Shown in pieces: positions 1-63,897 of a stretch of 64,000 nucleotides of DNA. The notes under the pieces are model-generated. The model saw only the letters and a program-made list of their open reading frames with translations, made no database searches and was not told where the DNA came from. Both the position numbers and the translations under genes were made by a program. The DNA comes from an uncultured Actinomycetes bacterium (GTDB lineage: Bacteria > Actinomycetota > Thermoleophilia > Gaiellales > F1-60-MAGs149), in NCBI GenBank assembly GCA_963779685.1, contig CAVZZG010000003.1, positions 44,950 to 108,949 of the forward strand. The letters are read 5' to 3'. The stretch's first letter is position 1. Each line of letters begins with the position of its first letter.

Positions 1-560
<560 letters not shown>

Positions 561-711
561 GCGATCCTCCTTGGATTTTGAAAAAACGTCTGAGTTGCGA
601 AAGACGGTCCGAGACCGGAAACGTCCAGAATATTCCGAGATGCCCCGTTCCGACCGCTTGTTGCCGAAATAGGTGGTGTCCAACCACCTGCAAGGCCTCG
701 ATGGAAATTTT

Positions 712-738
712 CTAGCACTCACTTTCGAGGAGTGCTAG
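712..738 (-). promoter_or_regulatory. CIRCE operator (HrcA binding site) in the groES leader
   Basis: CTAGCACTC-N9-GAGTGCTAG is a perfect 9-bp inverted repeat that matches the CIRCE consensus TTAGCACTC-N9-GAGTGCTAA at 16 of 18 positions. It lies about 150 nt upstream of the groES start. Confidence 0.85.
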
Positions 739-744
739 CAACTT

Positions 745-773
745 ATTTAAGCCGCTTGATTTGACATGGTTAA
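745..773 (-). promoter_or_regulatory. Putative sigma70-type promoter of groESL
   Basis: The minus strand reads TTAACC (773-768), a 17 nt spacer, then TTAAAT (750-745), ending 6 nt upstream of CIRCE. Housekeeping-type promoters typically sit just upstream of CIRCE. Pattern match only. Confidence 0.45.
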
Positions 774-946
774 TTCGGGCGTGGCGCGGTCGTCTTGCGG
801 CGTGCGCGAACTGCCCTGGCGAGGCTGTCAGCAGTCTCCCTGACCGTTGCTGCTAATGCCTTGAAATTAAACAGTTAATTTACTTTTTAGGCTTGCAATG
901 GAACCCGTTCGGCCTTGAAGATTTAATCCTCCACAACGGAGGCGGA

Positions 947-1230
947 ATGGCTTCGGCGGAATTGCTTCGGCGGACTTTCGACGGCAGCTTGCAGGCTACG
1001 GGCTGACCACGGCGCAGATCTTCTACCGGCGCCCGGATCACCGCTGGTTGCTGCAAAGCTATGTCTGGCAGCACTACGATCTGTTCCCGGAATTTCCCGA
1101 GCTGCAACGTTTCCTCGATTTCTGGCAGACCAAGCTCGAAGGCCCGCTGCATTCGGTGCAGGTCGCGCACTCCAAGCTGATCAAGCCGGCAGAACTCAAG
1201 GCCATCAACGGCGAATTCCGGCTGCACTGA
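947..1230 (+). CDS. usg: Usg-family protein with an unresolved 5' end (apparent 1-nt deletion near 960)
   Basis: Frame 1 reads ...ADFRRQLAGYGLTTAQIFYRRPDHRWLLQSYVWQHYDLFPEFPELQRFLDFWQTKLEGPLHSVQVAHSKLIKPAELKAINGEFRLH, which is Usg-like. That frame has no canonical start upstream of the TTG at 1048. The only ATG, at 947 (MASAE..), is in the adjacent frame, which suggests a lost base in gaa(a)tt. Confidence 0.6.
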
Positions 1231-1317
1231 GTTGACCTTCCGTCGGTGGACGGAAGGATCGGATGGGACGTTAGCCTTGCCTCACGCACGATGACGTGCG
1301 GGCAGGGGAGAACGCCC

Positions 1318-2145
1318 ATGATCGGTCGCAACGGCGTGTACGTCATCGCAACAATTCTCGGCGCCGCATGTTTCTCGCCCGGCGCAATGGCGCAGGACAG
1401 CTACCCCAACCATCCGATCACCCTGCTGCATGGTTTCGCCGCCGGCGGCAATTCCGACACGATTTCGCGCACCATCGGCGAGCCGCTGTCGCAACGGCTC
1501 GGCCAGCCGGTCATCGTCGAAGCGCGCGCCGGCGCCGGCGGCAATCTCGCCTCCGACCGTCTCGTCAAGTCGCCGCCCGATGGCTACACGCTGATCACCT
1601 TGACCGGCGGCCACGCGGTGTCGGGCGCCATCTACAAGTCGCTGCCGTTCGACACGGTCGAATGACTTTCAGATGATCTCGATGCTGATCTATTTTCCGT
1701 TCGTCATCGCGGTGAAAAGCGATTCACGCTTCCAGTCGCTGACGCAGCTGATCGCCGAGGCCAAGGCCAAGCCGAACACGATCAATTATTCTTCCGCCGG
1801 CGTCGGCTCGACCCAGCATCTCGCCGGCGCGTTGTTCTGCGCCATGGCCGGCATCGAAATGATCCACATTCCCTACCGCGGCGGCACCGGGCCGATCACC
1901 GATCTGCTTGGGCGGGCAGGTGGACATCCTGGTCGACACCCAGACCGTGACGCTTGCCGCATATCGCTTCCGGCGCGATCCGCGGACTCGGCGTGACCAG
2001 CCCGGAAGAATGGCCGTCGCTGAAAGGCATTCCGCCGGTCGGCAAGACCGTGCCGGGCTACGACGTGCGCTCGTGGATGGGCGTCGCCGCGCCGAAGGGC
2101 TTGCCGGCGGCGATCACCGAGCGGCTCAACAGCGAAATCCGTTAC
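1318..2145 (+). pseudogene. Bug/TctC-family tripartite tricarboxylate transporter substrate-binding protein; three frameshifts and 3'-truncated
   Basis: The Bug-like sequence (signal peptide, then ..AQDSYPNHPITLLHGFAAGGNSD.., ..NYSSAGVGSTQHLAGALF..IPYRGG.., ..GGQVDILVDTQTVTL / PHIASGAIRGLGVTS..) is spread over four frame segments. One-nt insertions occur near 1663, 1911 and 1956. Similarity ends near 2140, before the expected C-terminus. Confidence 0.8.
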
Positions 2146-49947: not shown

Positions 49948-50629
49948 TCAGGTGAGCGACACGTCGGTCGTCTCGCGCATCTCCTCGAAGTAGGCCACGG
50001 CAGCGGCGCGCGTGTGCACTTCGAGTTTGCGCAGGATGGCCTTGACGTGCGATCTCACGGTCTCGATCGACACCACGAGCTCTGCCGCGATCTCGCCGGT
50101 GCGGAGACCGCCGGCCAGCATGCCCAGGATCTGCCACTCACGGTGGGTCAGGTGCGCGCCCCGTGCTCGGCGGTGCTCGGCGCGCCTCGCCGCCACCCGC
50201 TGGTACTCGTGCACCAGGAGCGAGGTCATGCGGCGCGAGAGCGGAGCCTCGCCCTGGGCGGCGGCGGCTAGCGTCTCGCCCAGCCGCGATGCCGCCATGT
50301 CCTTCGTCAGGTAGCCGTCGACGCCGCTGCGGAGCGCGCGGAACAGGTCGGCCGGCTTCTCCGACGAGGTCAGGACCACGATCCGGGCATCGTCGTTGAG
50401 CGATCGCAGCTCGACGCCGAGATCGAGTCCATCGCCGTCCCGCAGGTAGATGTCGAGCAGCACCAGGTCGAACTCGAGCCGCGGCGCGAGTGCCCGGGCC
50501 ACCGGCACACGAGCCGGCCTCGCCGGCGATCCGGAAGCCATCCTCGGTGAGGATGTCGACCAGGCCGCGGCGGGTCAGCTCGTGGCCTTCGACGATCAGA
50601 ATCCGCAGGGGTTTTCCGTCATAACCCAA
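49948..50629 (-). pseudogene. NarL/LuxR-family response regulator RR-1, with a +1 frameshift near 50503 (possibly a sequence error)
   Basis: The N-terminus MGYDGKPLRILIVEGHELTRRGLVDILTEDGFRIAGEAGSCA is in one frame (ORF 50138..50629). ..VARALAPRLEFDLVLLDIYLRDGDG..LuxR HTH is in the next frame (ORF 49948..50541). An extra G lies in gtgccGgtgg. RBS GAGGA precedes the TTG start. Confidence 0.8.
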
Positions 50630-53222: not shown

Positions 53223-55052
53223 TCAGAGGTCGATGCGCACGATGCGGGAGATCAGGAATGCGCCGAGTGCGGTCATGGCGGCGGCGGAGCCGAGCAGGAT
53301 CTGGCCGGCGGTGCGGTCGAGCAGCTCGTGCATCAGGTCGGGGTTGGCGAGGTACAGGAAGGCGCCCATGCCGATGGGCAGGATGATCAGGATGATCATC
53401 GTCATGCGGCCCTGTGCGGTGAGCGACTGCACCTCGCGCTGGAGCCGCTGGCGCTCGAGCACCGACGCGGCCACCGAGTCGAGGATCTCGGCCATGTTCC
53501 CGCCGATCCGCGACTGGATGGCCACCACGGCGATCACCCAGTCGAGGTCGCGCGACCGCATCCTCACGCCGAGCTCGTCCATGGCGAGGTCCAGGTTGCC
53601 GCCGAGGCGGGTCTGGGAGATGACGCGGCGGAACTCCGACTTCGACGGCTCGGCCGCGTTGTCGGCGACCGAGTCGATCGCCTGCTGCAGCGAGAAGCCG
53701 GCTCGCAACGACTGCGAGAGGATCGCCAGGTTGTCCGGCAGCTGGTCCTGGAACGCCTTCATCCGCTGGGCCGCGCGGTGCTGCACCGACATCCAGGCGA
53801 TGAGGGGCACGAGCAGCCCGAAGAGGATCGCCCACGGGTTTCGCAGCACGACTGCGAGGACGAGGCCGACGAGCGTGCCCCCGGCGCATGCCAGGTAGAC
53901 GAGCTGGCTCGGCCGGATCGGGATGTCGGCCCGGTCGAGCTCGAGCGACAGGCGCTGCGCCCATGCCACGTCCTTCAGCCGCTTGTCGGTGCGGTCGAGA
54001 AGGTCGTCGAGGAACAGCGACTGTCGCGCCTCGTGGGCCTCGGCAGTCATGTGGTACTCGGAGACCCGGTCGGCCATCGACATCCGTCGCGTGCGGGCGA
54101 ACAGCAGTGCGATGGTCAGCACGGCCAGGGCGACGATGCCGGCGACGGCTGCGACCACCCACGACTCCTGCCAGAAGGCCGTCCGACGCCCGATCACCGG
54201 CGCCGGCGGCAGGCTGTAGTTGGCCGCCGCCGGGGCGAAGCCCGGCGCGCTGATGAGGGCGTGCCCCGCGGCGCCCGGCGCCGTCAGGTTCGACGTGAAG
54301 GAGACCTCGTAGAGGGTGGTCAGCGACGCCGTCAGGGATCGCCCCAGGGCCTCGAGGCGCTGTGCGTCCGGCGCCTGGCTGTAGGTCCCACCGGTGCGTG
54401 CGGCCACGCCGCGCAGTGCGTTCGGGTCGAACGCGTGCGAGGCCAGGCCGATCGTGAAGACCCGGACGTCGGCCGTGGAGGCGGCGGCTGCCACCGTGTC
54501 GAGCGTGGCCTTCGATCCGTTGTCGCTGCCGTCGGACATGACGACGATCACGCGCGATTGCGCGGGCTGATGCGACACGTCGGTGATCACGCGCCCGAGC
54601 GCGTCGTACAGCTGCGTGCCGCCGCCGGTGGTGACGGTTGCGAGCGCGGCGGTCTGGGCCGCGGCGGTGGCGCCGAACGGCGCCACGACGGCGACCTCGT
54701 TGTTGAAGCGGTAGACCGCGCTGCGGACGTTGGGCGGGTTGTCTGCGACCAGCGACCGGGCCGTGGCGAGGGCGGCCTTGAGCGGTGCGCCGGCCATCGA
54801 GGAGGAGGCGTCGATGAGGAGCGCCATGGCGACCGGGTCGGCGGACGTGCTGACGCTGACGCCGTGGATCGGCTCGCCGTTCTCGGTGACCTGGATCTCG
54901 TTCGGGTTCAGGGTGCGCCCGGTGGCGGCGATCAGCCACGTCTGCTCGGCTCCGTTGCCCGAGATCTGGCGGACGGTCACGAGCGAGTCGGCCACCGCGG
55001 CCGGCACCGCCAGCGAGAGGACGACGATCGCGATCAGGCAGCGGCGGATCAT
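53223..55052 (-). CDS. tadB: vWA-domain::TadB fusion (secreted von Willebrand A module fused to a T2SS-F platform protein)
   Basis: A signal peptide is followed by a vWA domain with an intact MIDAS (LIDASSSM, GGGTQLYDA, MSDGSDN), a TM segment, then a TadB-like T2SS-F domain (..LPDNLAILSQSLRAGFSLQQAI..) with C-terminal TM helices. 609 aa. Confidence 0.85.
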   Translation of the reverse strand: MIRRCLIAIVVLSLAVPAAVADSLVTVRQISGNGAEQTWLIAATGRTLNPNEIQVTENGEPIHGVSVSTSADPVAMALLIDASSSMAGAPLKAALATARSLVADNPPNVRSAVYRFNNEVAVVAPFGATAAAQTAALATVTTGGGTQLYDALGRVITDVSHQPAQSRVIVVMSDGSDNGSKATLDTVAAAASTADVRVFTIGLASHAFDPNALRGVAARTGGTYSQAPDAQRLEALGRSLTASLTTLYEVSFTSNLTAPGAAGHALISAPGFAPAAANYSLPPAPVIGRRTAFWQESWVVAAVAGIVALAVLTIALLFARTRRMSMADRVSEYHMTAEAHEARQSLFLDDLLDRTDKRLKDVAWAQRLSLELDRADIPIRPSQLVYLACAGGTLVGLVLAVVLRNPWAILFGLLVPLIAWMSVQHRAAQRMKAFQDQLPDNLAILSQSLRAGFSLQQAIDSVADNAAEPSKSEFRRVISQTRLGGNLDLAMDELGVRMRSRDLDWVIAVVAIQSRIGGNMAEILDSVAASVLERQRLQREVQSLTAQGRMTMIILIILPIGMGAFLYLANPDLMHELLDRTAGQILLGSAAAMTALGAFLISRIVRIDL

Positions 55053-59083: not shown

Positions 59084-59242
59084 TCAGAGCGACCCCGTGA
59101 TGCTGGTGAGGACGCCGGTGATCGAGGTGCCGAGCGTGCGAAGAGCGACGACGCATGCCACGGCGACGAGGACCAGGATCAGGCCGTACTCGGCGAGGGT
59201 CTGGCCCTCCTGCCTGCGCAGGTGGGTGAGGATGTCGTCCAT
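59084..59242 (-). CDS. flp: Flp-family type IVb pilin (52 aa; below the ORF-track cutoff)
   Basis: Hand translation gives MDDILTHLRRQEGQTLAEYGLILVLVAVACVVALRTLGTSITGVLTSITGSL*. It has the Flp motif G/QTxxEYGLI plus a hydrophobic helix. RBS GGGAG is 6 nt upstream. Confidence 0.85.
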   Translation of the reverse strand: MDDILTHLRRQEGQTLAEYGLILVLVAVACVVALRTLGTSITGVLTSITGSL

Positions 59243-59244
59243 GG

Positions 59245-59718
59245 TCACTCCCTTGTCCGCCCCGGAGGCGCCGCCGGAATGGCGGTGCGGCCGATGGGGC
59301 TCCCCGGCCGCGGTTGATCGGTGAGGTCGTCCCCGGCCCTTGGCCGACGGAGCGGATGGAGCAGTTCGAGGAGTCCCTCGATGCTCGGGTTGAACGTGGC
59401 GTTCAACTCCTGCGAGATCGCGTGCTCCATGCTTTCGTCGCGGCCGTAGCCGAGGACGACGAGCTCGGTACCGGCGTCCGCCAGGCGGCTTCCGGTCTCG
59501 ATGGCGAGCTGGAGATCATGCGAGGCGGTCAGGTCGATCACCGCGAGCTGCGGTGTCGCCCAGGCTCGTGTATCGCTCAGCGGGCACGAGCCCACGTCGG
59601 CGTGGCTGCCGAGGGCGAGCTCCAGGCAGTGCCGGGGGATCGCCCCGACACCCGCCAGCAGCACGTACGGGCGGCCCGTCTCGATGCCGTGTCGCGTGGT
59701 CTCCATGTCGTCCATCAT
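59245..59718 (-). CDS. Hypothetical protein with a weak receiver-like (pseudo-receiver) pattern
   Basis: 157-aa ORF with coding-like GC3 over the first ~120 codons. It shows a beta/alpha alternation (YVLLAGV, LAVIDL, ELVVLGYG) but lacks the acidic pocket and the conserved Lys. The tail is low complexity. Confidence 0.45.
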   Translation of the reverse strand: MMDDMETTRHGIETGRPYVLLAGVGAIPRHCLELALGSHADVGSCPLSDTRAWATPQLAVIDLTASHDLQLAIETGSRLADAGTELVVLGYGRDESMEHAISQELNATFNPSIEGLLELLHPLRRPRAGDDLTDQPRPGSPIGRTAIPAAPPGRTRE

Positions 59719-59876: not shown

Positions 59877-61421
59877 CTACCGCACCAGCCGGACGCCGCC
59901 CTGGGTGATCAGGTGGCCGATCTGGTTGAAGATGTCGTAGAGCTGGCCGGGGGTCGGCTGGTTGAAGAAGTAGGTGTCGTTCGACGCCATCATGCGCACG
60001 GTCGTGCCCGAGCTGATGGCCGGGCTCTCGCCCGCCAGCGGCAGGCCCAGGGCGCCGTTCGAGTATCGCTCGGGGTTGAACCCGCCAGCACCCGAGGCAT
60101 CGCCCTTGCACCGCTGGCCGTCGTTCGCGAAGCCGAAGTCGAGCGCGTAGCCGATCGAGAACCAGGTGATCCCGCGGGAGGCGGCGTAGGGCGCCCTGCC
60201 TCCCCAACCACCGGGCCCGTGGACGGCGTCGTTGTCGACGTTGTTGGACACCGACGAGCCGCACGGGTGCTGCTTGTCGAAGGTGGACTTGAGGGCGCTG
60301 GCCGCGTTCAGCCCCGTCCAGTTGTTCCACTGGTTCGCGCCGCCATCACCGAGCATGACCACGATGCGCCGGCAGTTCGCGCAGGTGCGTCCATGCAGCG
60401 CCAGCTCGGCGTCCGCCGCCCGGGCGGCCTCGTTGATGACGGTGTTGCCCTCGCCCGGCACGCAGCGGATCGCCGACACCAGGCGCGACGTGTCGATCAG
60501 CGCATTGGTAGCCGGGTTCACCCACTGCCAGGTCGCATCGAGCGGTGTTCCGAGCGGGCGCAGCGGCACGAGCAGCCAGTTGCCGTTCACCCCCGCGGTC
60601 GGGTTGCCCGGATAGGCGGTGGTGTTCGAGCTTCCGGTCGCGCAGTAGTTCGAGCCGAGCGGGTTGGCAGCGTTGTACGCCGGCGCGACGGGGCTCGAGG
60701 TACTTCCGCCGGGATTGAATCCCGAGAGGACGACGAAGCCGACCCGGTCGTAATGCCCCTGGGAGTCGGGGACCGGGTTGAAGAACTTGATGAAGCTGAG
60801 GATGCCGTTCTTGGCGTTGGCCAGATCGGACGGCGGGTTGTAGGTGAGGACGTTGCAGTTCGGCACCGTCGCCCCGGAGGCGTTCTGGCACATCGACCCG
60901 GTGCGGTCGAGCACGATCATCACGTCGAAGTCGACCTCGTCCGTGGAACACGGACTGCAGGCCGCGGCCATCGCGTGCGGGTTGAACGCATCGAAGTTCT
61001 GCCCGACCATCCTCCCGAACGCCTTCGCGAACGTGTTCTCCGACCGTATCGAGTGATCCTTGACCTCGAAGTAGTCGAACCGCGGCGCGCAGCTCGACTT
61101 GTCGGACGCGCCGGTCGGCATGCAGCCGTAGTCGAACGTGAACCCGGCGGCGTCGTAGCCGTTCAGCTGCAGGTACTGGCGGGCCACCTCCTGCGCCGTC
61201 TTCACACACCCGAAGCCCGACGGCGGGCTGACTCCCTCGAGGCACGGCAGGAACGCACCGCCCGCAAGCGCTGCGCCGTCCTCGGCCGCCTGCAGGTCGC
61301 GCTTCTTCCAGTACGCGCTGCCCACGTCGATCGCGATACCCGCGAGTCCGAGGAACACCACCAGGCTCAGCGCGAACCATGTCAGGTAGAACCCGCCCTG
61401 TCGGCGCCGCGAAGCTTTCAT
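59877..61421 (-). CDS. tadG: TadG-like pilus-associated protein with a vWA domain
   Basis: The ATG at 61421 is preceded by GGGAG. The N-terminus ..GGFYLTWFALSLVVFLGLAGIAIDVGSAYWKKRDLQAAEDGAALAG is the TadG/Flp-pilus-assembly motif. The vWA MIDAS is VLDRTGSM and it is Cys-rich. 514 aa. Confidence 0.8.
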   Translation of the reverse strand: MKASRRRQGGFYLTWFALSLVVFLGLAGIAIDVGSAYWKKRDLQAAEDGAALAGGAFLPCLEGVSPPSGFGCVKTAQEVARQYLQLNGYDAAGFTFDYGCMPTGASDKSSCAPRFDYFEVKDHSIRSENTFAKAFGRMVGQNFDAFNPHAMAAACSPCSTDEVDFDVMIVLDRTGSMCQNASGATVPNCNVLTYNPPSDLANAKNGILSFIKFFNPVPDSQGHYDRVGFVVLSGFNPGGSTSSPVAPAYNAANPLGSNYCATGSSNTTAYPGNPTAGVNGNWLLVPLRPLGTPLDATWQWVNPATNALIDTSRLVSAIRCVPGEGNTVINEAARAADAELALHGRTCANCRRIVVMLGDGGANQWNNWTGLNAASALKSTFDKQHPCGSSVSNNVDNDAVHGPGGWGGRAPYAASRGITWFSIGYALDFGFANDGQRCKGDASGAGGFNPERYSNGALGLPLAGESPAISSGTTVRMMASNDTYFFNQPTPGQLYDIFNQIGHLITQGGVRLVR

Positions 61422-61513
61422 GACTCCCTGATGATCCGCCCGCCCGGCCACGGAACCGATGCCCTCGGTGGGTGAGCCGTGGGGGACTTGCGGGGGATAT
61501 CGGCCGCGGCGTA

Positions 61514-61787
61514 CGTCCAAGTGCACGAGGCGCGTCGTCCAAGTGGACGGCCTGCGCGACGAGTGGCGGTGCCAAGGAGCTGCGCCGGCGGCGTCCGGCT
61601 CTGCGAGCCGGCTGGCGACGCCTCGCCGAGCTCTCCGTCGGAGCGCTCGGCCTCGCCAGGGGAACGGCGAGCGCAGGTCGAGGTCTCGTGCACTTGGACA
61701 TGGCGCGTCGTGCACTTGGACGCTTGCCGCGCCACGGCCCGCAGGGAAGGTCGTCCACTTGGACGGTGCGCGTCGTGCAATTGGACG
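61514..61787. promoter_or_regulatory. Array of six 14-bp dyad boxes (CGTSCA-NN-TGSACG) arranged as three 36-nt two-box modules
   Basis: The boxes lie at 61514-61527, 61536-61549, 61687-61700, 61709-61722, 61752-61765 and 61774-61787. Boxes within a pair are 22 nt apart and joined by NNNGCGCG. Boxes 2 and 5 are perfect palindromes. A TACAAT -10-like hexamer at 61793 follows box 6. Confidence 0.6.
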
Positions 61788-61830
61788 CTCGGTACAATCG
61801 CCCCCACGTACCGCCTGTCAAAGGAGCGTC

Positions 61831-63897
61831 ATGGCGCAGGAGCCTGGGAAGATCCGCAACGTCGCCGTCCTCGGTCATCGTGGGTCGGGGAAGACGTCCC
61901 TCGTGGAGTCGATGCTCTTCGAGGCCGGCGCGACGACGCGGCTCGGCTCGGTGCCCGACGGCACGACGGTGTCCGATTACGACGACGACGAGAAGCGTCG
62001 CTCGATGTCGATTGCATCCACGGTCTGCCATGCGTCGTGGGAGGGGCGCCGGATCAACCTCATCGACACGCCCGGCGACCCGTCGTTCCAGGGGGAGGCG
62101 CTGGCGGCGTTGGGCGTGGTGGAGGGGGCGATCGTCGAGATCTCCGGGGTGGCCGGGGTCGAGGTGTCGACGGACCGGCTGTGGCGTCGTGCCGAGGAGC
62201 GGCGCCTGCCCCGCCTGGTGCACGTCAACCTGCTCGATCGCGAGCGGGCGGACTTCGATGCGGCGGTCGCGTCCCTGAAGAAGCTGTCCGACAAGATCGT
62301 CGTGGTGGCGATGCCGATGGGCGTCGAGCAGGGCTACCGGGGCATGATCGACCTCGTCCACATGGTCGCGTACCCGGATCCGGGCTCCAAGAAGGAGGGC
62401 TCGGGAGAGCCGATCCCGGAGGAGTTCGCGGCCGAGGCGACGCGGCTCCACGAGGCCCTGATCGAGATCGTGGCCGAGTCGGCCGACGAGCTGATCGAGA
62501 AGTACCTCGAGGGGCAGGAGATCTCGGCCGAGGAGATGGCGTCGGCGCTGAAGGCGATGGTGGCCCGGGCCGAGGCCTTCCCGGTCACCTGTGGTTCTGC
62601 GACCCGCAACTCGGGAACCCACGCACTGCTCGATCTGATCGTCGAGGCGCTGCCCTCGCCGAAGCGGGCGGGCGGCATGCGGGGTCGCAACGCGGCCGGT
62701 GACGAGCTGACGATCGGCCTCGACGACGGCACGGCCGCGTACGTGTTCAAGACCATCGCCGATCCGTTTGCGGGAAAGCTCTCGATCTTCCGCGTGATCG
62801 CCGGCACCATCACGGGCGATTCGCAGCTCGTCAACCTCCGGACGCGCGGCAAGGAGCGCATCGGCGGGCTGGTGGACCTGCAGGGTAAGGAGCACGCGAC
62901 GGTCACGAGCTTCGGGCCCGGCGACATCGGCGCCGTCGCCAAGCTCAAGGACGTCACCACCGGCGACCTCCTCCTCGACCGCGAGCGCGATCTCGCGATC
63001 GACTCCGTGCCGCTGCCGGCCCCGGTGGTCTCGGTGGCGATCGAGCCCGGCCGCAAGGGCGAGGAGGAGAAGATGGCCTCGGCCCTGCGGCGGCTCCAGG
63101 AGGAGGACCCGACGCTGGTCGTCCACCGCGACGAGCGCACCGGCGAGATGCTGGTCGAGGGCCTCTCGCAGATGCACATCGAGGTCACGGTCGAGAAGGT
63201 GAAACGCCGGTTCGGCGTCGAGGTGATCACGCACCCGCCCCGTGTCCCCTACCTCGAGGCCGTGCGCAAGGCCGCGCGCGGCCACGGTCGCCACAAGAAG
63301 CAGACCGGTGGCCGCGGCCAGTTCGGCGATTGCCACATCGAGGTCGAGCCGCTGCCCGCCCACGAGGGCTACCAGTTCATCGACAAGATCGTCGGCGGCG
63401 TCATCCCGCAGAGCTTCCGGCCCGCGGTCGACAAGGGCGTGCAGGAGGCGATGCAGAAGGGCGACCTGGCCGGGTTCCCGGTGGTGGGCGTCCAGGTGCG
63501 CCTCGTCGACGGCTCGTACCACACGGTCGACTCGAGCGAGATGGCCTTCAAGATCGCCGGCACGATGGCGTTCCGCGATGCCTACCAGAAGGCCGACCCG
63601 GTGCTGCTCGAGCCGGTCATGGCCGTCGAGATCTCGGTGCCCGACGAGAACGTCGGCGACATCACGGGCGACCTCAACTCGCGGCGGGGACGCCTGCTCG
63701 GCATCGAGCCCCGCGGCTCCGCCACCGTGGTGCGGGCCGAGGCACCGATGGGCGAGATGCTGACGTACTCGCAGACGCTCACGTCGGTTACCGGCGGCCG
63801 CGGCGACTACTCGATGAGCTTCCTCCGCTACGAGGAAGTGCCGGCGCACATCGCCGGCAAGGTCATGGCCGAGGCCAAGAAGGCGGCCGAGCATTAG
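61831..63897 (+). CDS. fusA: Elongation factor G paralog (EF-G2-like translational GTPase)
   Basis: RBS AAAGGAG, then ATG at 61831. G1 is VLGHRGSGKTS, G3 is DTPGDPSF, and domains II-V are EF-G-like (..HKKQTGGRGQFG.., ..GSYHTVDSSEMAF..). 688 aa. The extension of ORF 61459.. upstream is non-coding. Confidence 0.92.
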   Translation: MAQEPGKIRNVAVLGHRGSGKTSLVESMLFEAGATTRLGSVPDGTTVSDYDDDEKRRSMSIASTVCHASWEGRRINLIDTPGDPSFQGEALAALGVVEGAIVEISGVAGVEVSTDRLWRRAEERRLPRLVHVNLLDRERADFDAAVASLKKLSDKIVVVAMPMGVEQGYRGMIDLVHMVAYPDPGSKKEGSGEPIPEEFAAEATRLHEALIEIVAESADELIEKYLEGQEISAEEMASALKAMVARAEAFPVTCGSATRNSGTHALLDLIVEALPSPKRAGGMRGRNAAGDELTIGLDDGTAAYVFKTIADPFAGKLSIFRVIAGTITGDSQLVNLRTRGKERIGGLVDLQGKEHATVTSFGPGDIGAVAKLKDVTTGDLLLDRERDLAIDSVPLPAPVVSVAIEPGRKGEEEKMASALRRLQEEDPTLVVHRDERTGEMLVEGLSQMHIEVTVEKVKRRFGVEVITHPPRVPYLEAVRKAARGHGRHKKQTGGRGQFGDCHIEVEPLPAHEGYQFIDKIVGGVIPQSFRPAVDKGVQEAMQKGDLAGFPVVGVQVRLVDGSYHTVDSSEMAFKIAGTMAFRDAYQKADPVLLEPVMAVEISVPDENVGDITGDLNSRRGRLLGIEPRGSATVVRAEAPMGEMLTYSQTLTSVTGGRGDYSMSFLRYEEVPAHIAGKVMAEAKKAAEH

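What the first reader, a model, noticed from the sequence alone, without database searches (positions are those of the whole stretch)
61514..61787. Six phased 14-bp dyad boxes in three two-box modules between the Tad locus and an EF-G paralog
The 409-nt divergent spacer contains six boxes matching CGTSCA-NN-TGSACG. Box 1 (61514) is CGTCCAAGTGCACG, box 2 (61536) is CGTCCAAGTGGACG, and boxes 3 (61687) and 4 (61709) both contain CGTGCACTTGGAC. Box 5 (61752) is CGTCCACTTGGACG and box 6 (61774) is CGTGCAATTGGACG. Boxes 2 and 5 are perfect palindromes. They come in pairs exactly 22 nt apart (two helical turns), joined by NNNGCGCG, giving a 36-nt module present three times. Modules 2 and 3 keep roughly the same phase. 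Module 1 is also about 85% complementary to modules 2 and 3, so a long-range RNA or cruciform pairing is possible. Box 6 ends 5 nt before a TACAAT -10-like hexamer, 38 nt upstream of the EF-G paralog ATG. Boxes 1-2 lie about 95-125 nt upstream of tadG. This looks like a cooperative multi-dimer operator array controlling one or both divergent units, and I cannot match the half-site to a known regulator.
Basis: seen in the sequence. Interest (0 to 1): 0.7.

Follow-up and report, generated by a model that had tools for sequence, protein, structure and literature searches.

The report
Phased dyad-repeat array inserted between genes
The six boxes are real, but they are one local copy of a short palindromic repeat family that appears and disappears in intergenic DNA of this bacterial class (Thermoleophilia), inserted just upstream of the EF-G paralog's promoter; they are not a conserved, dedicated control site for the neighbouring genes.

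Summary
Five exact and one near-exact CGTSCANNTGSACG boxes lie in three 22-nt pairs within 274 nt (0.04 exact matches expected in 64 kb).

- **Same module elsewhere.** The two-box, 22-nt module recurs at many intergenic sites in other Thermoleophilia/Gaiellales genomes, in arrays of up to 8 in-phase boxes. Of 106 neighbour distances, 69 are exactly 22 nt.
- **No promoter bias.** These arrays sit in divergent, tandem and convergent spacers.
- **Unstable.** Box number differs between close relatives, and one array is reduced to a 19-nt remnant.
- **Regionally concentrated.** On two long contigs nearly all arrays fall in a ~50-kb domain.
- **Absent from orthologues.** Six orthologous EF-G loci (68-80% identity), three with the same divergent layout, have 130-150-nt spacers and no boxes. 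They keep only the TACAAT -10 and the ribosome-binding site.

The window's boxes plus a unique 137-nt core therefore form a ~275-nt lineage-specific insertion ending 5 nt before that -10.

Best reading: a new REP/BIME-like family of extragenic dyad repeats, probably the target of an unknown DNA-binding protein, that incidentally replaced the promoter-upstream DNA here. A dedicated operator remains possible but is unsupported. The binding protein and the regional concentration are unexplained.

The parts
61514..61527 (.). Box 1, CGTCCAAGTGCACG
   Evidence: Exact pattern match.
61536..61549 (.). Box 2, CGTCCAAGTGGACG; 22 nt after box 1
   Evidence: Exact match.
61687..61700 (.). Box 3, CGTGCACTTGGACA; one mismatch at the last base
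61709..61722 (.). Box 4, CGTGCACTTGGACG; 22 nt after box 3
61752..61765 (.). Box 5, CGTCCACTTGGACG; reverse complement of box 2
61774..61787 (.). Box 6, CGTGCAATTGGACG; 22 nt after box 5; ends 5 nt before the -10 hexamer
61514..61549 (-). Module 1 (boxes 1-2), inverted relative to modules 2 and 3. Its reverse complement carries the linker GACGCGCCTC, also found in metagenome locus L043.
61687..61722 (+). Module 2 (boxes 3-4)
   Evidence: Direct-repeat family D1.
61752..61787 (+). Module 3 (boxes 5-6); 87% identical to module 2 over 39 nt and 89% complementary to module 1 over 36 nt
61550..61686 (.). GC-rich 137-nt core between the inverted modules, with small inverted repeats of its own. It has no counterpart in any other locus held.
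   Evidence: pairs I10, I11, I13; blastn; plasmid and phage searches.
61514..61787 (.). The whole ~275-nt lineage-specific segment, missing from orthologous spacers. As a single strand it folds with module 1 paired to module 3.
   Evidence: Orthologue comparison. Folds give z-scores of -5.8 and -6.4.
61422..61513 (.). Ancestral part of the spacer. It reads as homologous to the L044 spacer (CGATGCCCT..GGGTG..CGTGGG..) up to box 1 and presumably carries the tadG promoter.
   Evidence: Read by eye; the MAFFT runs did not align this flank to the orthologues.
61793..61798 (+). TACAAT, a -10-like hexamer conserved in the EF-G orthologues (GGTACAATCGCC in L044, CGTACAATCGCC in L040, TCTACAATCG in L041, CTACGATCG in L039)
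61822..61826 (+). AGGAG ribosome-binding site, conserved in orthologues
61831..63897 (+). EF-G paralog, 688 aa, with all five EF-G domains
59877..61421 (-). TadG-like gene, 514 aa (Pfam Tad, PF13400); last gene of the Tad/Flp pilus locus

Best explanation
The six boxes are a local copy of a previously undescribed family of extragenic dyad repeats in Thermoleophilia-type Actinomycetota. The unit is a 14-16-bp near-palindrome, (C)CGTSCA-NN-TGSACG(G), amplified in a strict 22-nt register into modules of two boxes and arrays of up to eight. Arrays gain and lose units and appear or disappear in intergenic DNA, much as REP/BIME or BOX-type elements do.

Shown for the window: a ~275-nt composite (one inverted module, a unique 137-nt core, two direct modules) sits in an otherwise 130-150-nt divergent spacer and ends 5 nt upstream of the conserved -10 of the EF-G paralog.

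Inferred:
- The box is kept because a dimeric sequence-specific DNA-binding protein recognises it, with neighbouring dimers on the same helical face. That protein could be a transposase-like or an architectural factor.
- Arrays grow by slippage or recombination in 22-nt steps.
- Any effect on EF-G or tadG transcription is a by-product of replacing the -35/upstream promoter DNA, not an ancestral regulatory design.
For: - **Family.** An exact two-box pattern scan found 38 loci, about 25 of them in Gaiellales, Thermoleophilia or 'uncultured Actinomycetes' genomes assembled from metagenomes, often several per genome. Three more arrays turned up in L050-L052.
- **Register.** Among 106 neighbour distances of 200 nt or less, 69 are exactly 22 nt, against one each at 21 and 23. 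The flanking C and G extend the box to 14 bp in 100 and 108 of 119 boxes. L050 has 8 consecutive boxes in phase.
- **Only the boxes are shared.** Between the window and other lineages, linkers differ and the 137-nt core is unique.
- **Placement.** Arrays lie almost always outside genes, with no promoter bias:
  - tandem: PfkB>AMP-ligase, ksgA>ispE;
  - divergent: DUF3054<>RsgA, ferredoxin<>SCP2;
  - convergent: DAO><GntR, flagellin><ORF.
- **Instability.** The DUF3054<>RsgA spacer holds a ~195-nt six-box array in L026 but only the 19-nt remnant TGAGCACGGAACGCCCGTC in L050, between exactly alignable flanks. Orthologous arrays have 3, 3 and 5 modules in L008, L014 and L033.
- **Insertion in the window.** Orthologous EF-G upstream regions in L039-L042, L044 and L045 have no boxes. 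Three with the same divergent layout are 130-150 nt long, and the flanks on both sides of 61514-61787 correspond to the L044 spacer: the promoter side in the alignment, the tadG side read by eye.
- **Hairpins.** Gaiellales-type modules fold into 17-bp hairpins as single strands, with z-scores of -7 to -8, as REP/REPIN units do.
Against: - **Copy number and spread.** In the two long contigs the arrays are concentrated in a ~50-kb domain (24-72 kb of a 4.17-Mb contig; 344-400 kb of a 1.54-Mb contig), with one or two elsewhere. That is not the genome-wide dispersal of REP elements.
- **No REP hallmarks.** The boxes are not preceded by a GTAG motif, and no REP-associated (RAYT-type) transposase turned up among the subset of genes annotated around the arrays.
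- **Weak hairpins here.** The window's own modules barely fold as hairpins (z = -1.4, +0.1, -2.7).
- **Protein site is equally consistent.** Conservation of the box with a variable linker of fixed length is also what a true transcription-factor site would show.
- **Limited view of this genome.** Only 64 kb could be read, and it holds a single cluster.
- **Circularity.** The conservation count is partly circular, because the loci were fetched by exact pattern match.
Confidence: 0.5

Rival explanations
1. Dedicated operator array. A dimeric regulator, for example one of the two NarL-type response regulators or the large LuxR-type (LAL) regulator beside the Tad locus, binds the boxes cooperatively. 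It may loop module 1 to modules 2 and 3, repressing or activating the EF-G paralog and/or tadG.
For: - The box has a 6/7-2-6/7 inverted-repeat layout. From general knowledge, that is the layout of high-affinity sites for NarL/FixJ-type (GerE helix-turn-helix) dimers such as NarL '7-2-7' and BldM.
- Three GerE-domain regulators lie within 22 kb.
- Box 6 ends 5 nt from the conserved -10.
- In relatives some arrays end 27-28 nt before start codons (AMP-ligase, ispE).
- A GerE-type response regulator is also encoded inside the array-rich domain of the Gaiellales genomes.
Against: - No boxes in six orthologous EF-G upstream regions.
- Arrays occur between convergent genes.
- Arrays are gained or lost between close relatives.
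- The recognition helices of the window's response regulators (STETVRSHIKAVLRKL) and the Gaiellales one (SPKTVKNHISNILMKL) differ.
- RR-1 appears frameshifted.
Confidence: 0.2
2. Chromosome-architecture sites. The boxes are binding sites of a protein that marks or organises a particular chromosomal domain, in the manner of parS/ParB, RacA ram sites, MatP matS or replication-fork-trap Ter sites. The window's array would be one such site, possibly at the edge of a domain that continues beyond the window.
For: - Arrays are strongly concentrated in a ~50-kb stretch in two long contigs, and in the first 24 kb of a 47-kb contig.
- Placement is independent of gene orientation.
- Asymmetric boxes are mostly CACTTG-oriented in the left part of the domain and CAAGTG-oriented in the right part, in both long contigs.
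- The window's cluster lies 2.2 kb from the window's end, so any continuation would be unseen.
Against: - No canonical parS or dif-like site in any held locus.
- The position of the domain relative to the replication origin or terminus is unknown.
- GC skew in these loci tracks gene orientation, so it is uninformative.
- The polarity pattern rests on about 5 independent clusters.
- Arrays vary between close relatives, which would be odd for essential segregation sites.
- Only one cluster in 64 kb of the window.
Confidence: 0.15
3. A single non-autonomous transposon (MITE). 61514-61787 would be one miniature inverted-repeat element, with modules 1 and 3 as terminal inverted repeats.
For: - The ends are inverted repeats: 36 nt at 89%, extendable to 59 nt at 76%.
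- The size, ~275 nt, fits.
- The segment is a clean insertion relative to L044 and L041.
Against: - The core has no second copy in any held sequence, in plasmids or in phages.
- No clear target-site duplication.
- In relatives the modules occur without any shared internal sequence and in variable numbers.
Confidence: 0.07
4. RNA element. The region is transcribed, and the long module 1:module 3 stem or module hairpins act as a terminator, stabiliser or switch.
For: - Both strands fold far better than shuffles (z = -5.8 and -6.4).
- Gaiellales modules form strong hairpins.
Against: - The conserved -10 lies downstream of the whole segment, so the EF-G mRNA should not include it.
- No Rfam match.
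- No terminator-like site.
- Non-complementary linkers and direct-oriented boxes break the hairpins in many family members, including the window's module 2.
Confidence: 0.04

Closest known systems
REP/BIME elements and REPINs of Enterobacteria and Pseudomonas
   Same: - Short GC-rich extragenic palindromes occurring singly, in pairs and in clusters.
- Copy number differs between relatives.
- Some units form strong hairpins.
- From general knowledge, REP elements are bound by proteins (RAYT transposase, IHF, gyrase).
   Different: - Strict 22-nt register with up to 8 units.
- 14-bp dyad with only a 2-nt centre.
- No GTAG tetranucleotide.
- No RAYT gene seen.
- Tens of copies, not hundreds, concentrated in one ~50-kb domain instead of dispersed.
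BOX elements of Streptococcus pneumoniae (boxA-boxB(n)-boxC) and similar modular intergenic repeats
   Same: Modular intergenic elements in which an internal unit varies in copy number between loci and strains, and which can alter expression of neighbouring genes (general knowledge).
   Different: - No sequence relation.
- Here the repeated unit is a dyad of 14 bp plus an 8-nt linker, not a 45-bp boxB.
- No fixed terminal modules.
Tandem phased operator arrays (GlpR/DeoR-family 20-21-bp tandem operators; MetJ met-box arrays; NarL 7-2-7 sites)
   Same: Dyad sites repeated head to tail at about two helical turns, which would place cooperating dimers on one face. The 6/7-2-6/7 half-site geometry resembles NarL/BldM-type sites. 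These comparisons are recalled from the literature, not tested here.
   Different: - Half-site sequence matches none of these.
- Arrays are not tied to promoters.
- They are not conserved in orthologous promoters.
- They occur at unrelated genes.
Centromere-like repeat arrays and regional site families (plasmid parC/sopC iterons; chromosomal parS clusters; RacA ram sites)
   Same: Many copies of a short dyad, partly in tandem arrays, confined to a limited chromosomal region.
   Different: - No similarity to parS.
- No partition genes seen nearby.
- Array content differs between close relatives.
BldC-type direct-repeat sites (PMC5859096)
   Same: Arrays of variable length bound cooperatively by a small helix-turn-helix protein; AATT-centred units in the Gaiellales variant.
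   Different: - The BldC unit is 9 bp, AATTxxxx(C), head to tail.
- The window's boxes mostly lack AATT.
- The small HTH-like ORF found next to some arrays does not co-occur with boxes.

Membership tests
REP/BIME (REPIN) elements | Extragenic location | tested here: met
   Nearly all of 119 exact boxes lie between predicted genes. Exceptions are one conserved box inside ispE and one module inside a peptidase gene in L034.
REP/BIME (REPIN) elements | Each unit is an imperfect palindrome able to form a stable stem-loop | tested here: inconclusive
   Gaiellales modules fold well (z = -7 to -8). The window's modules do not (z = -1.4, +0.1, -2.7).
REP/BIME (REPIN) elements | Hundreds of copies dispersed round the chromosome | tested here: not met
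   On the 4.17-Mb contig only 5 of ~520 8-kb blocks have an exact module, and 4 of them lie within 24-72 kb. The window's own genome could not be scanned.
REP/BIME (REPIN) elements | Associated RAYT (Y1 transposase) gene flanked by the repeats, and a conserved GTAG 5' of the hairpin | tested here: inconclusive
   No GTAG next to the boxes; the flanks are CC/GC/TC and GG/GA. No Y1 transposase among the ~80 proteins annotated. Whole genomes were not searched.
MITE | Terminal inverted repeats | tested here: met
   Modules 1 and 3: 36 nt at 89%; 59 nt at 76%.
MITE | Several copies of the whole element, including its internal sequence, and a target-site duplication | tested here: not met
   The core 61550-61686 has no other copy in the window, in 52 loci, in plasmids or in phages. 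No duplication is evident at the junctions.
Transcription-factor operator of the tadG/EF-G divergent promoters | Dyad site overlapping or adjoining core promoter elements | tested here: met
   Box 6 ends 5 nt upstream of the conserved TACAAT. No transcription start site has been mapped.
Transcription-factor operator of the tadG/EF-G divergent promoters | Conservation of the sites in orthologous regulatory regions | tested here: not met
   No box at up to 1 mismatch in the spacers of L039, L040, L041, L042, L044 and L045.
Transcription-factor operator of the tadG/EF-G divergent promoters | Sites elsewhere restricted to promoter regions of a coherent regulon | tested here: not met
   Relatives show arrays in convergent spacers and beside unrelated genes. 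This was not testable in the window's own genome.
Transcription-factor operator of the tadG/EF-G divergent promoters | A cognate regulator that binds the boxes | not testable with these tools
   Candidates (two NarL-type response regulators, one LAL regulator) are identified only by domain.
ParB/parS centromere | Match to the conserved parS palindrome tGTTtCAcGTGaAACa | tested here: not met
   No match at up to 2 mismatches in the window or any locus. The box sequence is unrelated.
Known RNA families (Rfam 15) | Covariance-model match | tested here: not met
   Only a sub-threshold chance hit (19.7 bits against a cut-off of 37) in the spacer, and nothing at arrays in 17 related loci.

The most novel reading that the evidence does not exclude
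The boxes are the recognition sites of an unknown Thermoleophilia DNA-binding protein that coats phased arrays and marks one ~50-75-kb chromosomal domain. That would be a non-parS centromere-like, terminus-like or fork-trap system, with box polarity switching across the domain. The window's array would be an outlying or edge site of the equivalent domain.
Probability: 0.12. Interest if true: 0.85.

Novelty: new variant of a known kind. Interest (0 to 1): 0.5.

Why it matters
- **For annotation.** A striking 'operator array' next to a gene need not be that gene's regulator site. Comparison with orthologous spacers and a search for the motif at other loci changed the reading here.
- **For biology.** The family appears undescribed; sequence and keyword searches of the literature found nothing. 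It combines three features not usually seen together:
  - a dyad conserved across a bacterial class;
  - an exact two-helical-turn register maintained in arrays of up to eight units;
  - confinement to one chromosomal domain in some genomes.

  Identifying the protein that reads the box would show whether this is selfish DNA, a global regulator's target, or a chromosome-organising system in a poorly studied class of soil Actinomycetota.
- **Locally.** The insertion replaced the DNA upstream of the -10 of an EF-G paralog, so it is a natural experiment on promoter rewiring by repeat insertion.

Tried and rejected
- **Known RNA.** Rfam at gathering and at permissive thresholds found nothing.
- **Promoter or terminator scans of the spacer.** No hits.
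- **Phage or plasmid origin.**
  - The pattern scan of viral contigs found 0.
  - BLAST against plasmids and phages gave only weak GC-rich chance matches to the core.
- **Window-type module in metagenomes.** A single hit, L043. Even the sample holding the 87%-identical EF-G gene therefore yielded no exact window-type module, if that contig is in the collection. No DNA was available for that contig.
- **The window's own genome.** The EF-G protein exists in the protein collection at 100% identity on a 2.47-Mb contig, but the contig could not be retrieved.
- **A conserved 57-aa HTH-like ORF beside the largest arrays as the binding protein.** It gives only a weak HTH_17 hit (E = 0.028) and no PDB relative. 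Genomes with the ORF at 63-68% identity and the same synteny have no boxes at all. Rejected.
- **GntR/FCD regulators beside arrays in two lineages.** They are not orthologous. Rejected.
- **Same response regulator in the window and in Gaiellales.** About 35% identity and different recognition helices. No support.
- **parS and dif.** Absent.
- **DnaA boxes.** GTCCAC in some boxes resembles the core of the actinobacterial TTGTCCACA, but most family members read GTGCAAT. Rejected by inspection.
- **Boxes as -35/-10 elements.** TTGGAC and TGCAAT occur at the wrong spacings (6, 11-12 or 28 nt). Rejected by inspection.
- **GC skew to place the array-rich domain relative to origin or terminus.** Skew follows gene orientation, so it is uninformative.
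- **Substitution test on orthologous modules.** Fixed positions are 100% identical, against 76% for linkers and 52% for flanks. The test is partly circular because loci were fetched by exact match, so it is reported only as suggestive.

Full report
**1. The observation**

The region reads as the first stage described. The six boxes are:
- Box 1, 61514: CGTCCAAGTGCACG
- Box 2, 61536: CGTCCAAGTGGACG
- Box 3, 61687: CGTGCACTTGGACA
- Box 4, 61709: CGTGCACTTGGACG
- Box 5, 61752: CGTCCACTTGGACG
- Box 6, 61774: CGTGCAATTGGACG

Five match CGTSCANNTGSACG exactly, and they are the only exact matches in 64 kb. Shuffles give 0.04. At up to one mismatch there are 11 matches against 1.4 expected.

Each pair is 22 nt apart, start to start. 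The three 36-39-nt modules form one repeat family, and module 1 is its inverted copy.

The flanking genes are a TadG-like gene (59877-61421, minus strand) and a complete five-domain EF-G paralog (61831-63897, plus strand). The spacer is 409 nt. TACAAT lies at 61793-61798, 5 nt after box 6.

Minor corrections:
- Boxes 2 and 5 have perfect arms but a non-palindromic centre.
- The linker is NNGCGCGT.
- Boxes within a module are direct repeats of a near-dyad.

**2. The same module exists elsewhere**

A scan of one genome per species for two boxes 22 nt apart returned 38 stretches. About 25 are from Gaiellales, Thermoleophilia or 'uncultured Actinomycetes' genomes assembled from metagenomes, usually several per genome. 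The remainder, from other phyla, are simple tandem repeats such as GTGCACGTGCAC or isolated chance-like hits.

In the Actinomycetota loci the boxes form arrays. Over 27 loci I counted 119 exact boxes and 30 one-mismatch boxes beside them. Of 106 neighbour distances of 200 nt or less, 69 are exactly 22 nt, against one each at 21 and 23. A second mode at 43-49 nt separates modules.

The base before the 12-mer is C in 100 of 119 boxes, and the base after is G in 108 of 119.

Three further loci, fetched for another reason, also carry arrays. One has eight consecutive boxes at the 22-nt period.

The commonest variant in Gaiellales is GTGCAATTGCAC-GGAACGTTCC. Another Thermoleophilia genome uses GTGCAATTGGAC with linkers such as GGAGCGGCCC. 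The window uses GTSCACTTGGAC with NNGCGCGT. Only the boxes are shared between the window and the other lineages.

**3. Where the arrays sit**

With a GC3-based gene caller and Pfam on the neighbours, arrays are almost always intergenic. They occur in every kind of spacer:
- Between co-directional genes: PfkB kinase > AMP-dependent ligase, ending 27 nt before the ATG; ksgA > ispE, 28 nt before the ATG; rsmI > metG.
- Between divergent genes: DUF3054 <> RsgA; ferredoxin <> SCP2.
- Between convergent genes: FAD oxidoreductase > < GntR/FCD; flagellin > < ORF.

The neighbouring genes have nothing obvious in common. This is not the pattern expected for operators of a regulon.

**4. The arrays are unstable**

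Four of the Gaiellales genomes are close relatives; a GntR protein is 94-97% identical among them. They share arrays at orthologous positions, but the number of modules differs: 3, 3 and 5 in L008, L014 and L033.

The DUF3054<>RsgA spacer carries a ~195-nt six-box array in L026. At exactly the same place in L050, between alignable flanks, there is only the 19-nt remnant TGAGCACGGAACGCCCGTC. L050 instead has a ten-box array downstream of RsgA.

**5. The window's array is an insertion**

Homologues of the EF-G paralog were found and six orthologous loci were read:
- L041 (79% identity) and L044/L045 (80%) share the divergent gene/EF-G layout; the upstream gene is a Tad-family protein in L041 and not annotated in L044/L045.
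- L039 (75%), L040 (73%) and L042 (68%) have other upstream neighbours.

None has a box, even at one mismatch, in the upstream spacer. The three divergent spacers are 130-150 nt long.

What is conserved is the -10-like hexamer and its surroundings (GGTACAATCGCC in both L044 and the window), the AGGAG ribosome-binding site and the start codon.

By eye, the window's left flank (61460-61513) matches the L044 spacer right up to box 1. The alignment resumes on the promoter side at the conserved GGTACAATCG (61791-61800).

So boxes 1-6 and the 137-nt core between them are one ~275-nt lineage-specific segment, placed immediately upstream of the -10. The core has no other copy anywhere I could look.

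A metagenome scan for the window's own module type found only one other contig, L043. It carries three to five GTCCAACTGGAC boxes and the same linker, GACGCGCCTC, about 110 nt upstream of a secreted-protein gene.

**6. Single-strand structure**

As a single strand, the whole segment folds with module 1 paired to module 3 (z = -5.8 and -6.4). The window's individual modules barely fold (z = -1.4, +0.1, -2.7). Gaiellales modules with the palindromic linker make 17-bp hairpins (z = -7 to -8).

Many family members have non-complementary linkers or direct-oriented asymmetric boxes. Hairpin potential is therefore not the conserved property. The box and the 22-nt register are.

The conserved -10 lies downstream of the segment, so the EF-G mRNA should not contain it. 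No Rfam family matches.

**7. What it most likely is**

The combination of features best fits a REP/BIME-like or BOX-like family of repeats:
- a short conserved dyad;
- a fixed register;
- extragenic location without promoter bias;
- variable copy number;
- gain and loss between close relatives;
- absence from orthologous spacers.

The box is conserved across lineages whose EF-G orthologues are only ~62% identical, while linker sequence is free and linker length is not. That argues for recognition by a sequence-specific dimeric protein, with neighbouring dimers on one face of the helix. This step is inference; no binding protein was identified.

At this locus the insertion replaced the DNA upstream of the EF-G -10 and pushed the two divergent promoters apart. 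It may well change expression, but as a by-product.

**8. What does not fit**

On the two long contigs the arrays are not dispersed. Four of the five positive 8-kb blocks of a 4.17-Mb contig lie between 24 and 72 kb, and all five on a 1.54-Mb contig lie between 344 and 400 kb.

Within that domain there is roughly one cluster per 4-8 kb, at least 40 times the density elsewhere. The domain includes housekeeping genes (rsmI, metG, ksgA, ispE, rsgA), so it is not a mobile island.

Asymmetric boxes are mostly CACTTG-oriented on one side of the domain and CAAGTG-oriented on the other, in both contigs. This rests on few independent clusters.

I could not place the domain relative to the replication origin or terminus. 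No parS or dif was found, and GC skew follows gene orientation. This observation is what keeps an architectural reading alive, and it is the most interesting loose end.

**9. The operator reading**

The box has the 6/7-2-6/7 geometry typical of GerE-type helix-turn-helix dimers (general knowledge). Two NarL-type response regulators and a large LuxR-type (LAL) regulator sit beside the Tad locus. Binding by one of them is therefore a fair experiment.

I put this reading at about 0.2.

**10. Novelty and score**

Neither sequence searches nor keyword searches of the literature found the motif. The BldC direct-repeat system differs in unit and geometry.

I class the feature as a new variant of a known kind: extragenic palindromic repeat families. 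Its unusual features are the strict 22-nt register and the regional confinement.

Interest is 0.5. The feature is real, undescribed and carries an unexplained regional pattern, but its function is unknown and the specific regulatory claim is weakened.

Noticed in passing
Loci L006, L037, L007, L008 (CAVRMM010000002.1, 24-72 kb) and L016, L022, L002, L033, L019 (CAVTAC010000009.1, 344-400 kb): Box arrays are confined to a ~50-kb chromosomal domain that includes housekeeping genes. Asymmetric boxes are mostly CACTTG-oriented on one side and CAAGTG-oriented on the other. The domain's position relative to the replication origin or terminus is unknown.
   Followed up: partly
L002:4139, L007:7469, L035:5269: An exact GTGCAATTGCAC box lies inside the ispE coding region at the same position in three related genomes, 461-470 nt from the ksgA>ispE module. 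It is one of the very few boxes inside a gene.
   Followed up: no
L014:6937-7110, L008:1162-1335, L033:5964-6137, L026:903-1076 (all minus strand): A highly conserved 57-aa ORF (MANHLTPDEVAKEFGIDTRDVIRLCIEEHVPIYHGKIDKTLF...) follows the NIF3 gene. It has more than 1000 homologues in soil metagenomes, no Pfam family above threshold (HTH_17 at E = 0.028) and no PDB relative. It is not correlated with the boxes.
   Followed up: yes
window 49948-50629 (minus strand): The first NarL-type response regulator is split between two overlapping reading frames: 50138-50629 encodes the receiver N-terminus, and 49948-50541 the rest plus the GerE domain. This is either a frameshifted pseudogene or a sequencing error.
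   Followed up: no
window 61793-61830; L039, L040, L041, L044 upstream of EF-G: The EF-G paralog has a conserved promoter-proximal block, (G)TACAATCG(CC), 33-55 nt before the ATG, plus AAGGAGC, across orthologues of 73-80% identity. No -35-like element is recognisable in any of them.
   Followed up: partly
window 53223-55052 (minus strand): One Tad-locus protein fuses an N-terminal von Willebrand factor A domain to a TadB/TadC-type (T2SSF) membrane domain. The locus also encodes Flp pilin (59084-59248), TadE-like proteins, RcpC/CpaB, a CpaE-like ATPase and TadA.
   Followed up: no
window 1-2000: GC content is 60%, against 69-76% in the rest of the window. There is no rRNA or tRNA there. It could be foreign DNA or a long non-coding stretch.
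   Followed up: no
L050:2336-2635: The longest array seen: eight boxes at exactly 22-nt intervals plus two more. The public gene caller read it as part of a 255-aa ORF with no Pfam match, so such arrays may be producing spurious protein predictions.
   Followed up: partly
L043:1953-2041: A short soil-metagenome contig has GTCCAACTGGAC boxes at spacings of 14, 22, 22 and 19 nt and the same linker as the window's module 1. It lies ~110 nt upstream of a gene starting with a signal-peptide-like sequence. It is the only other example of the window's module variant.
   Followed up: partly
window 61586-61651: The unique core of the inserted segment contains its own inverted repeats: 61586-61601/61605-61620, and 61625-61637/61639-61651 at 92% complementarity. 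These are unrelated to the boxes.
   Followed up: no
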